The position numbers and the translations under genes are program-made. From assembly GCF_053078305.1 (NCBI RefSeq), contig NZ_CP166879.1: a DNA stretch of 64,000 nt; one strand, 5' to 3'. Of the stretch, positions 30,837-30,971 are shown one piece after another (within the stretch, counting starts at the first letter, position 1; every line of letters starts with the position of its first letter). Under the pieces are notes generated by a model. That model saw only the letters and a program-made list of their open reading frames with translations. It was not told the origin of the DNA and ran no database searches.

Positions 30837-30971
30837 ATGGTTCAGTGTGTTCGACATTTTGTCTTACCGCGTCTGAAAAAAGACGCTGGCCTGCCGTTTT
30901 TCTTCCCGTTGATCACCCATTCCCAGCCCCTCAATCGAGGGGCTTTTTTTTGCCCAGGCGTCAGGAGATAA
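30837..30971 (+). CDS. pyrL: pyrBI operon leader peptide
   Basis: 44-aa MVQCVRHFVLPRLKKDAGLPFFFPLITHSQPLNRGAFFCPGVRR, ending four bases before pyrB. Confidence 0.9.
   Translation: MVQCVRHFVLPRLKKDAGLPFFFPLITHSQPLNRGAFFCPGVRR
30925..30951 (+). terminator. pyrBI attenuator (UTP-sensitive intrinsic terminator)
   Basis: agcccctc-aatc-gaggggct hairpin followed by an 8-T run, inside pyrL. Confidence 0.85.

What the first reader, a model, noticed from the sequence alone, without database searches (positions are those of the whole stretch)
30837..30971. pyrL leader peptide with embedded attenuator hairpin
The 44-codon leader and a GC hairpin plus 8-T run are read directly four bases upstream of pyrB. 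This is the classical UTP-sensitive attenuation mechanism, noted for completeness.
Basis: partly seen in the sequence, partly recalled or inferred. Interest (0 to 1): 0.15.

Follow-up and report, generated by a model that had tools for sequence, protein, structure and literature searches.

The report
pyrL leader and pyrBI attenuator
This is the ordinary, long-known E. coli pyrL leader peptide gene with its built-in transcription terminator, which tunes aspartate carbamoyltransferase (pyrBI) expression to the cell's UTP level. It is base-for-base identical to the laboratory strain K-12.

Summary
Window 30837-30971 (+) is a 44-codon ORF (MVQCVRHFVLPRLKKDAGLPFFFPLITHSQPLNRGAFFCPGVRR). It contains an 8-bp GC-rich hairpin (30925-30944) running into a run of eight T (30944-51). 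Its stop ends 3 nt before the pyrB ATG (30975).

RefSeq annotates pyrL at exactly these coordinates. The peptide passes the curated Pfam and NCBIfam pyrL models. From 30789 to pyrB the DNA is identical to K-12 MG1655, and the leader is >=99% identical in 5416 of 5424 matching complete E. coli genomes.

In 80 other Enterobacterales species the same hairpin plus T-run precedes pyrB-pyrI. A leader ORF nearly always ends in the terminator loop or beyond it. An upstream hairpin followed by a U/C-rich tract is also kept and shows covariation.

This fits the published model. At low UTP, polymerase pauses in the U-rich tract, the ribosome translating pyrL catches up, and it blocks the terminator hairpin. 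At high UTP, termination occurs.

Nothing is new here. The mechanism itself rests on the literature, not on my tests.

The parts
30784..30789 (+). Probable -35 hexamer of the main pyrBI promoter (TTGCAC; K-12 has TTGCGC)
   Evidence: Read from the sequence; lies 16 nt upstream of the TATAAT. Position is inferred, not tested. The single difference from MG1655 in this region is here. The consensus scan did not call it (3 of 6 matches).
30806..30811 (+). -10 hexamer TATAAT of the pyrBI promoter, followed by the G+C-rich discriminator GCCGGAC (30812-30818)
   Evidence: Sequence. The TATAAT/ATAAT is conserved in the alignment of 80 leaders. It sits 7 nt upstream of the published initially transcribed sequence AATTTG (PMC7039003).
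30819..30824 (+). Initially transcribed region AATTTG: transcription start and the site of UTP-dependent reiterative transcription (AAUUUUn transcripts)
   Evidence: Sequence, identical to K-12. The T3-4 run followed by G is kept across genera. Function is taken from PMC7039003 and PMC6524683 (about 7-fold effect; Liu, Heath & Turnbough 1994).
30827..30832 (+). Shine-Dalgarno sequence GGGAGG of pyrL
   Evidence: Sequence; 4 nt before the ATG; nearly invariant in 80 leaders.
30837..30971 (+). pyrL, 44-codon leader peptide ORF (stop included)
   Evidence: Annotated at the same coordinates in RefSeq. Pfam PF08052 117 bits, NCBIfam NF007587 120 bits. An ATG aligned with this one opens an ORF in 77 of 80 aligned sequences (window plus 79 other-species loci), and the 3 Yersinia loci that MAFFT misaligned have an equivalent ORF.
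30867..30889 (+). Pause hairpin (CCGCGUCU-GAAAAA-AGACGC.GG)
   Evidence: Folds at -11.6 kcal/mol, z = -2.4. On the 80-sequence alignment 82.6% of cells pair, against 31-46% when the partner is slid. 31 cells have changes on both sides, against 14.2 +/- 3.5 in shuffles (0 of 500 shuffles reach it). One pair occurs as UA:39, CG:18, UG:10. Its role as a pause signal comes from the literature and was not tested.
30890..30911 (+). U/C-rich tract CCUGCCGUUUUUCUUCCCGUUG: the UTP-sensitive pause region, which also encodes PFFFPL
   Evidence: Sequence. The T4-6 C T..CCG motif is kept in 63 of 77 leaders. It is read in a different frame (RFSSR/RFSFR) in 5 of them, so the constraint is on nucleotides. 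The uridine-rich stretch overlapping the leader ORF is described in PMC3641672 and PMC7818426.
30925..30944 (+). Attenuator (intrinsic terminator) hairpin AGCCCCUC-AAUC-GAGGGGCU
   Evidence: A GCCCCUY...RAGGGGC hairpin of -9.6 to -17.6 kcal/mol was folded in 78 of the 80 other-species loci upstream of pyrB. In the other two (Yersinia L079, L080) the search window cut it off, but the same hairpin is visible. RNAalifold independently recovers its invariant CCCC/GGGG core.
30944..30951 (+). Run of eight T (U-tract of the terminator); codons A36-F37-F38-C39 of pyrL
   Evidence: Sequence. T7-T9 in all 79 other-species loci measured; seven T columns are invariant in the alignment.
30975..31910 (+). 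pyrB, aspartate carbamoyltransferase catalytic chain (the regulated gene)
   Evidence: TIGR00670 418 bits (cut-off 237); annotation.
31923..32384 (+). pyrI, aspartate carbamoyltransferase regulatory chain
   Evidence: TIGR00240 243.5 bits (cut-off 148.6). A pyrI homologue is downstream in 80 of 80 related loci.

Best explanation
The element is the pyrL leader and attenuator of the E. coli pyrBI operon.

Transcription starts at A30819 from the TATAAT promoter. RNA polymerase makes a hairpin (30867-30889) and then a U-rich tract (30890-30911).

When UTP is scarce, polymerase pauses in that tract. A ribosome that has started at the pyrL ATG (30837) then has time to catch up. As polymerase moves on through the terminator (hairpin 30925-30944, U8 30944-30951), the closely following ribosome covers the 5' arm of the hairpin. 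The hairpin cannot form, and transcription continues into pyrB and pyrI.

When UTP is plentiful, polymerase does not pause and outruns the ribosome. The hairpin forms and most transcripts end at the U-run, 24-31 nt before pyrB.

A second UTP sensor acts at initiation. At high UTP, the AAUUU transcript slips on the T3 run of AATTTG (30819-24) and is extended into unproductive AAUUUUn RNA.

Shown here: every sequence part, its identity to K-12, family membership, and conservation of the architecture across Enterobacterales. Taken from the literature and inferred for this window: pausing, ribosome-polymerase coupling, UTP dependence and reiterative transcription.
For: - **ORF and terminator:** both are present as described.
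- **Annotation:** exact coordinate match to annotated pyrL in RefSeq genomes, including K-12 b4246. The sequence is 100% identical to MG1655 from 30789 to pyrB.
- **Within E. coli:** the leader is >=99% identical in 5416 of 5424 matching complete genomes.
- **Family models:** Pfam PF08052 at 117 bits and the NCBIfam equivalog at 120 bits. pyrB and pyrI are confirmed downstream.
- **Terminator across species:** the hairpin plus T7-9 precedes pyrB in all 80 other species. It was folded in 78 loci and is visible for the other two.
- **Leader ORF geometry:** of the 76 other-species loci whose ATG aligns with pyrL's, 46 have the stop codon in the terminator loop and most of the rest have it beyond the hairpin. 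Only two ORFs stop 3-6 nt before the stem. The ATG-to-T-run distance is 106-120 nt in nearly all.
- **Pause hairpin:** it covaries.
- **U/C tract:** it is conserved at the nucleotide level whatever the reading frame.
- **No antiterminator:** no RNA competes for the terminator's 5' arm, which stays unpaired when the 3' arm is left out. This fits a ribosome-as-antiterminator mechanism.
- **Literature on this sequence:** ribosome coupling prevents the pyrL terminator (PMC5021804, PMC4824070, citing Roland, Liu & Turnbough 1988). UTP-sensitive pausing is described in PMC7818426 and PMC3641672. Reiterative transcription at AATTTG is described in PMC7039003 and PMC6524683.
Against: I found nothing against it, but several limits apply.
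- No computation here tests pausing, coupling or UTP dependence.
- The terminator stem is almost invariant, so it offers little covariation. RNAalifold recovers only its 4-bp core.
- Third-codon-position excess over codons 1-25 is only marginal (0.49 versus about 0.34 bits, p = 0.06). Sequence comparison therefore does not by itself prove translation.
- The primary papers and the main review (PMC2415746, PMC3078970, PMC282141) were not available to read. Mechanistic statements are cited second-hand.
Confidence: 0.96

Rival explanations
1. It is an amino-acid-sensing (trp/phe-type) attenuator. Ribosome stalling at the Phe codons (FFF at 30897-30905, FF at 30945-30950) would report Phe-tRNA charging and switch between antiterminator and terminator hairpins.
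For: The leader carries five Phe codons in two clusters. A weak sub-threshold Rfam Trp_leader hit covers 30881-30951 (19.7 bits against a gathering score of 41).
Against: - No alternative (antiterminator) pairing exists for the terminator's 5' arm.
- A ribosome stalled at FFF would sit about 20 nt upstream of the hairpin and could not block it.
- The same T-rich nucleotides are read as RFSSR in some genera, so the Phe codons are a by-product of the U-rich tract.
- The Rfam hit is far below threshold and is carried by the generic terminator stem.
- The literature assigns UTP, not Phe, as the signal (PMC3641672, PMC7818426).
Confidence: 0.015
2. The hairpin is just the terminator of the upstream gene yjgH, and the 44-codon ORF is a chance reading frame.
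For: ORFs of this length are common by chance. The hairpin is a generic intrinsic terminator that attracts unrelated sub-threshold Rfam hits.
Against: - The hairpin lies 368 nt downstream of the yjgH stop, with a promoter in between.
- None of the 80 other-species loci has yjgH within the roughly 1.5 kb held upstream, yet all keep the hairpin, the T-run, the leader ORF and pyrI.
- About 600 E. coli genomes lack the yjgH-pyrL spacer but keep the leader.
- The ORF passes two curated family models.
Confidence: 0.005
3. PyrL is a small protein with a function of its own (acting in trans, or as a nascent peptide that stalls its ribosome), beyond simply being translated.
For: The N-terminal half (MVQCVRH.VLPRLK.DAGLPFFFPL) is well conserved across many Enterobacteriaceae genera.
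Against: - Length varies from 29 to 56 codons.
- The C-terminal half changes frame and sequence freely.
- The stop position tracks the terminator rather than any peptide feature.
- Conservation is nearly as strong at third codon positions as at first and second, and it persists across frames. This points to nucleotide-level rather than peptide-level constraint.
Confidence: 0.02

Closest known systems
E. coli K-12 pyrL (b4246) / pyrBI attenuator (Turnbough, Hicks & Donahue 1983; Roland, Liu & Turnbough 1988)
   Same: Everything. The nucleotide sequence is identical from the promoter -10 through the pyrB start, with the same coordinates relative to pyrB and the same annotation.
   Different: Only a single base in the presumed -35 hexamer (30788 A versus G) and 9 other differences (8 substitutions and a 1-nt indel) further upstream in the yjgH-pyrL spacer.
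Salmonella / Citrobacter / Klebsiella pyrL (33-34 codon leaders)
   Same: Same promoter start (AATTTG or GTTTTG), SD, ATG, pause hairpin, U/C tract, terminator hairpin and T-run.
   Different: Their leader ORF stops inside the terminator loop (33-34 codons) instead of running through the hairpin to 3 nt before pyrB, as it does in Escherichia (44 codons).
pyrE attenuator of E. coli (rph-pyrE)
   Same: By established knowledge, and as stated in PMC7818426: a UTP-sensitive coupling of transcription and translation that decides termination at an intrinsic terminator before a pyrimidine biosynthetic gene.
   Different: In pyrE the translated ORF is the upstream gene rph rather than a dedicated short leader peptide. 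It was not examined here.
trp/his/phe/leu leader-peptide attenuators
   Same: A short translated leader ORF upstream of an intrinsic terminator. The ribosome's position decides between termination and readthrough.
   Different: Those sense charged tRNA through runs of regulatory codons and use an RNA antiterminator (2:3) hairpin. Here there is no alternative hairpin and the signal is UTP sensed by RNA polymerase. Rfam leader models do not reach threshold.
Bacillus PyrR-dependent pyr attenuators
   Same: Pyrimidine-responsive transcription attenuation upstream of pyr genes.
   Different: Those work through a protein (PyrR) binding an RNA element. No PyrR-binding-site match was found at any threshold, and no leader translation is involved there.

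Membership tests
pyrL / PyrBI operon leader peptide (Pfam PF08052; NCBIfam NF007587) | Peptide matches the curated family model above its cut-off over its full length | tested here: met
   PF08052: 117.1 bits (cut-off 25), residues 1-44 on profile 1-44. NF007587 equivalog: 120.1 bits (cut-off 61).
pyrL / PyrBI operon leader peptide (Pfam PF08052; NCBIfam NF007587) | Encoded immediately upstream of pyrB-pyrI on the same strand | tested here: met
   The pyrL stop at 30971 is 3 nt before the pyrB ATG at 30975, and pyrI follows at 31923. Gene order is identical in the RefSeq annotation.
pyrL / PyrBI operon leader peptide (Pfam PF08052; NCBIfam NF007587) | Identity to the reference K-12 gene b4246 | tested here: met
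   100% nucleotide identity over pyrL and the whole leader.
pyrBI-type ribosome-coupled, UTP-sensitive transcription attenuator | Intrinsic terminator (G+C hairpin plus U-run) between the promoter and the structural gene | tested here: met
   30925-30944 plus T8 at 30944-30951; -15.9 kcal/mol, z = -4.6. Present in all 80 related species.
pyrBI-type ribosome-coupled, UTP-sensitive transcription attenuator | Leader ORF whose translation carries a ribosome onto or through the 5' arm of the terminator hairpin | tested here: met
   In the window the ORF runs through the hairpin and the U-run. In the 76 other-species loci with an aligned ATG, the stop lies in the loop (46) or beyond the hairpin in all but two.
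pyrBI-type ribosome-coupled, UTP-sensitive transcription attenuator | Upstream hairpin followed by a U-rich tract (pause signal) inside the leader ORF | tested here: met
   Hairpin 30867-30889 with covariation support. The U/C tract 30890-30911 is conserved at the nucleotide level.
pyrBI-type ribosome-coupled, UTP-sensitive transcription attenuator | No RNA antiterminator; the ribosome itself prevents hairpin formation | tested here: met
   The 5' arm stays unpaired in the fold of 30819-30936, and 30890-30936 folds no better than shuffles. This is a prediction only.
pyrBI-type ribosome-coupled, UTP-sensitive transcription attenuator | UTP-dependent polymerase pausing, and readthrough that depends on leader translation | not testable with these tools
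   Taken from the literature on the identical K-12 sequence: PMC5021804, PMC4824070 (citing Roland et al. 1988), PMC7818426, PMC3641672.
UTP-sensitive reiterative transcription promoters (pyrBI, codBA, upp, carAB P1) | Run of at least 3 T in the non-template strand just after the start site (pyrBI: AATTTG) | tested here: met
   AATTTG at 30819-30824, 7 nt after TATAAT. The published ITR sequence is given in PMC7039003 and PMC6524683. The T3-4-G motif is conserved in the alignment. Slippage itself is not testable here.
Amino-acid (trp/his/phe/leu) leader attenuators | Match to an Rfam leader model and an alternative antiterminator hairpin | tested here: not met
   Trp_leader scores 19.7 bits against a gathering score of 41, and no other leader family is listed. 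Nothing at gathering threshold covers 30800-30975. No alternative pairing exists.
PyrR-binding pyr attenuators (Rfam PyrR) | PyrR binding-site RNA motif in the leader | tested here: not met
   No PyrR hit even at E <= 10 on 30400-31200, nor at gathering threshold in the whole window.

The most novel reading that the evidence does not exclude
The pyrL Shine-Dalgarno region (CGGGAGGA, 30826-30833) can pair with the pyrimidine tract just past the pause hairpin (UCUUCCCG, 30901-30908). This is the outer helix of the predicted minimum-energy fold of the leader.

If the helix is real, it would close the ribosome-binding site as soon as polymerase has left the pause region without a ribosome on board. 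That would make the high-UTP 'terminate' decision irreversible and would silence the terminated leader RNAs.

The pairing potential is kept in 91.6% of cells across 74 distinct leaders, with two compensated changes in Serratia. However, this is not above the shuffled control (91.3%), and the covariation score is below the shuffled mean. Two independently conserved motifs, a purine-rich SD and a U/C-rich pause tract, explain it equally well.

I could not check whether the early papers already drew this helix.
Probability: 0.08. Interest if true: 0.25.

Novelty: already known. Interest (0 to 1): 0.04.

Why it matters
It does not change anything. This is a textbook regulatory element in its textbook host, with the textbook sequence.

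Its value in a scan is as a positive control. A reader without tools correctly recognised a leader peptide with an embedded terminator, to the exact base.

The comparative data add a small tidy illustration of the model. Across 80 species the leader's length and peptide drift freely. The terminator, the U/C tract, the start-site T-run and the rule 'the ORF must reach the terminator' stay fixed.

Tried and rejected
- **Rfam, permissive (E <= 10) on 30400-31200, and gathering threshold on the whole window.** No family covers the pyrBI leader. The sub-threshold hits (Chlorobi-1, Hrs1, GcvB, Trp_leader and others) all ride on the generic terminator stem and U-run, so I dismissed them.
- **RNAalifold on the 80-sequence MAFFT alignment.** It recovers only the invariant 4-bp core of the terminator. 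Alignment register shifts (3- versus 4-nt loops) and near-invariance leave no covariation, so I judged the terminator by per-sequence folding instead.
- **Long-range SD:pyrimidine-tract helix.** Tested alone, it is not above the shuffle or slide controls for covariation. I kept it only as the low-probability novel case.
- **Small hairpin 30844-30858 from the minimum-energy fold.** Only 59.7% of cells pair, so it is not supported.
- **Alternative 49-codon ORF from ATG 30833 in another frame.** That ATG is AAG in most genera, so I rejected it.
- **Minus-strand ORF 30842-30934 (30 aa, TTG start).** No support of any kind.
- **Codon-position test for purifying selection on the peptide.** Marginal only (p = 0.06).
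- **Reading the main review and primary papers (PMC2415746, PMC3078970, PMC282141).** They are not held in the library, so mechanism is cited from later open-access papers that summarise them.
- **Locating the minor upstream promoter P1.** I could not place it from the sequence or from the accessible literature.

Full report
**Observation**

Window 30837-30971 on the + strand reads ATG...TAA. It translates to the 44-residue peptide MVQCVRHFVLPRLKKDAGLPFFFPLITHSQPLNRGAFFCPGVRR.

A terminator-like site lies inside this ORF. The stem-loop AGCCCCTC-AATC-GAGGGGCT spans 30925-30944 (8 pairs, 6 of them G-C). It runs straight into eight T at 30944-30951. As RNA the hairpin folds at -15.9 kcal/mol, with z = -4.6, and none of 200 dinucleotide shuffles folds as well.

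The next ORF starts at 30975, three bases (AAG) after the leader's stop codon. It is a 311-aa protein that scores 418 bits against the aspartate carbamoyltransferase equivalog TIGR00670. It is followed at 31923 by the regulatory chain, which scores 243.5 bits against TIGR00240.

'Four bases upstream' is the coordinate difference between the last base of the stop codon and the A of the pyrB ATG.

**Identity**

A megablast of 30600-31000 against 5,426 complete E. coli genomes hits 5,424 of them. The feature annotated under the match is 'pyrL: pyr operon leader peptide'.

- In the 100%-identical genome (strain PapRG-06-5) the pyrL CDS maps exactly to window 30837-30971. The neighbours are tabA, bdcR, bdcA, yjgH, pyrL, pyrB, pyrI, ridA and mgtA.
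- In K-12 MG1655 pyrL is b4246. A pairwise alignment shows the window is identical to MG1655 from 30789 through the pyrB start. All 10 differences lie upstream in the yjgH-pyrL spacer, the last of them in the presumed -35 hexamer.
- The stretch from the -10 hexamer to pyrB (30806-30974) is at least 99% identical in 5,416 of the 5,424 matching genomes.
- The peptide scores 117 bits on Pfam PF08052 'PyrBI_leader' (cut-off 25) and 120 bits on the NCBIfam equivalog NF007587 (cut-off 61).

The window therefore comes from an E. coli chromosome. The finding is the canonical pyrL leader, the same sequence on which the published experiments were done.

- **Promoter and start site.** Upstream of the ORF are a perfect TATAAT (30806-30811), a G+C-rich discriminator, and then AATTTG (30819-30824). 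AATTTG is the published initially transcribed sequence of the pyrBI promoter (PMC7039003, PMC6524683). The GGGAGG ribosome-binding site is at 30827-30832.
- **Pause hairpin.** Inside the ORF a second hairpin (30867-30889) folds at -11.6 kcal/mol.
- **U/C-rich tract.** The hairpin is followed by CCUGCCGUUUUUCUUCCCGUUG (30890-30911).
- **No antiterminator.** When the 3' arm of the terminator is left out, its 5' arm remains unpaired. The 30890-30936 segment folds no better than shuffles. There is thus no RNA antiterminator of the trp-leader kind.

**Comparative evidence**

A PyrB-based scan of one genome per species returned 80 loci from Escherichia, Citrobacter, Salmonella, Klebsiella, Enterobacter, Kosakonia, Cedecea, Buttiauxella, Pantoea, Erwinia, Serratia, Rahnella, Yersinia and others.

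- **Terminator.** All 80 have a GCCCCUY...RAGGGGC hairpin followed by T7-T9 upstream of pyrB. It was folded in 78 loci. In the other two, Yersinia L079 and L080, the search window cut it off, but it is visible. Its T-run ends 18-22 nt before pyrB in most genera and up to about 190 nt before it in some Yersinia and Serratia.
- **Leader ORF.** In 77 of the 80 aligned sequences (the window plus 79 loci) an ATG aligned with the E. coli pyrL ATG opens an ORF. The three Yersinia loci that MAFFT misaligned have the same layout with a 48-codon leader.
- **ORF length and stop position.** ORF length ranges from 29 to 56 codons, apart from two run-on cases. The C-terminal half is not conserved, but the stop position is constrained. 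It lies in the terminator loop in 46 loci and beyond the hairpin in most of the others. Only two ORFs end 3-6 nt before the stem, which is still within a ribosome footprint.
- **Spacing.** The ATG-to-T-run distance stays at 106-120 nt in nearly all loci.
- **Pause hairpin covariation.** 82.6% of cells pair, against 31-46% with slid partners. 31 cells have changes on both sides, against 14.2 +/- 3.5 in shuffles (0 of 500 shuffles reach it). One pair occurs as U-A (39), C-G (18) and U-G (10).
- **U/C tract.** The T4-6 C T..CCG motif is kept in 63 of 77 leaders. In five it is read in a different frame (RFSSR/RFSFR rather than FFFP). The constraint is therefore on nucleotides, not on the peptide.
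- **Codon positions.** In line with that, third positions are only marginally more variable than first and second over codons 1-25 (0.49 versus about 0.34 bits, p = 0.06).
- **Synteny.** None of the 80 loci has a yjgH homologue in the roughly 1.5 kb held upstream, whereas all have pyrI downstream. The hairpin belongs to pyrBI, not to the upstream gene.

**Mechanism**

The anatomy and its conservation fit the published model for this sequence.

- **Attenuation.** UTP-rich pause sites in the leader are transcribed quickly at high UTP, so the attenuator hairpin forms and transcription stops (PMC7818426). The uridine-rich stretch overlapping the short ORF lets UTP levels alter the coupling of transcription and translation (PMC3641672). 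Tight coupling across pyrL is needed to prevent terminator formation (PMC5021804). The terminator sits inside the 135-bp leader gene and is not repressed at normal UTP (PMC4824070). These papers cite Roland, Liu & Turnbough 1988.
- **Reiterative transcription.** A separate layer at AATTTG produces AAUUUUn transcripts at high UTP and accounts for about 7-fold regulation (PMC6524683, PMC7039003, citing Liu, Heath & Turnbough 1994).
- **What I showed and what I did not.** I showed that the parts exist, are identical to K-12, and are conserved in the arrangement the model needs. Pausing, coupling and UTP dependence are taken from the literature and cannot be tested with these tools.

**Rivals**

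- **Phe-sensing trp-type attenuator.** There is no antiterminator. A ribosome stalled at FFF would sit too far upstream to matter. The 'Phe codons' are read in another frame in some genera. The Rfam Trp_leader score is 19.7 against a gathering score of 41.
- **yjgH terminator plus a chance ORF.** This is refuted by synteny and by the family models.
- **A peptide-specific role for PyrL.** This is disfavoured by the free drift of length, frame and C-terminal sequence.
- **PyrR-type control.** This is excluded by the absence of any PyrR-site match.

**An unproven extra**

The predicted minimum-energy fold pairs the pyrL ribosome-binding region (30826-30833) with UCUUCCCG (30901-30908). The pairing potential is kept in 91.6% of cells and is compensated in Serratia. 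It does not exceed shuffled controls (91.3%), and its covariation score is below the shuffled mean. Two independently conserved motifs explain it just as well. I keep it only as the low-probability novel reading.

**Verdict**

The element is already known in every respect and carries no variant in this window. Interest is very low. Its worth is as a correct positive control for the first-stage reader.

Noticed in passing
window 30558-30789: The yjgH-pyrL spacer is far more variable than the leader. Only 35 E. coli genomes are >=99% identical to it, about 600 of 5,426 lack it altogether, and 10 differences from MG1655 fall here. One difference (30737 A, where K-12 has T) creates a perfect TATAAT at 30736-30741 directly after TTGACT (30730-35). 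Another changes the presumed -35 of the main promoter (30788; TTGCAC versus TTGCGC). Whether either affects the minor upstream promoter P1 or the main promoter is unknown.
   Followed up: partly
window 30826-30833 with 30901-30908: Predicted long-range helix between the pyrL Shine-Dalgarno region and the pyrimidine tract after the pause hairpin. The pairing potential is conserved (91.6%) but there is no covariation above controls.
   Followed up: yes
window 30897-30908; loci L049, L056, L057 and others: The T-rich tract TTTTTCTTCCCG is conserved as nucleotides. It is translated as FFFP in most genera and as RFSSR/RFSFR in five leaders, including three of the Cedecea group. Small indels give FFSR or FSFR in others.
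   Followed up: yes
L079:1315-1500, L080:1315-1500, L078:1329-1500: In two Yersinia species and Serratia grimesii, an insert of about 125 nt that folds very stably (about -57 kcal/mol) sits between the attenuator and pyrB. From memory of the consensus, its sequence (…CCCCAGGAGCTTACA…CTGGGGTGAGCG…) looks like an ERIC/IRU intergenic repeat. This was not verified against a reference.
   Followed up: no
L006-L013, L016 and many others: Leader length falls into classes set by where the frame meets a stop: 33-34 codons (stop in the terminator loop), 44-45 codons (stop 2-3 nt before pyrB), and 48 codons (stop overlapping the pyrB start by 8 nt). Single-base changes in T-run length (8 versus 9 T) shift leaders between the last two classes.
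   Followed up: partly
window 35839-35954 (-): A magnesium riboswitch (Rfam RF01056, 125.8 bits) lies upstream of mgtA (33049-35745, - strand). It is another leader-based control element a few kb from pyrL.
   Followed up: no
window 18843-19014, 42864-42934, 46163-46240, 52403-52481 (-): Five copies of Rfam naRNA4 (RF02564; REP-derived nucleoid-associated RNA) are found. Other gathering-level hits are Ysr276 at 17815-18009 (-), STnc450 at 62094-62151 (+), ES036 at 61972-62014 (+), and a tRNA at 6721-6802 (-).
   Followed up: no
window 30833-30982 (+): A 49-codon ORF in another frame starts 4 nt before the pyrL ATG and overlaps the pyrB start. Its ATG abuts the SD and is AAG in most other genera, so it is very unlikely to be a gene.
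   Followed up: yes
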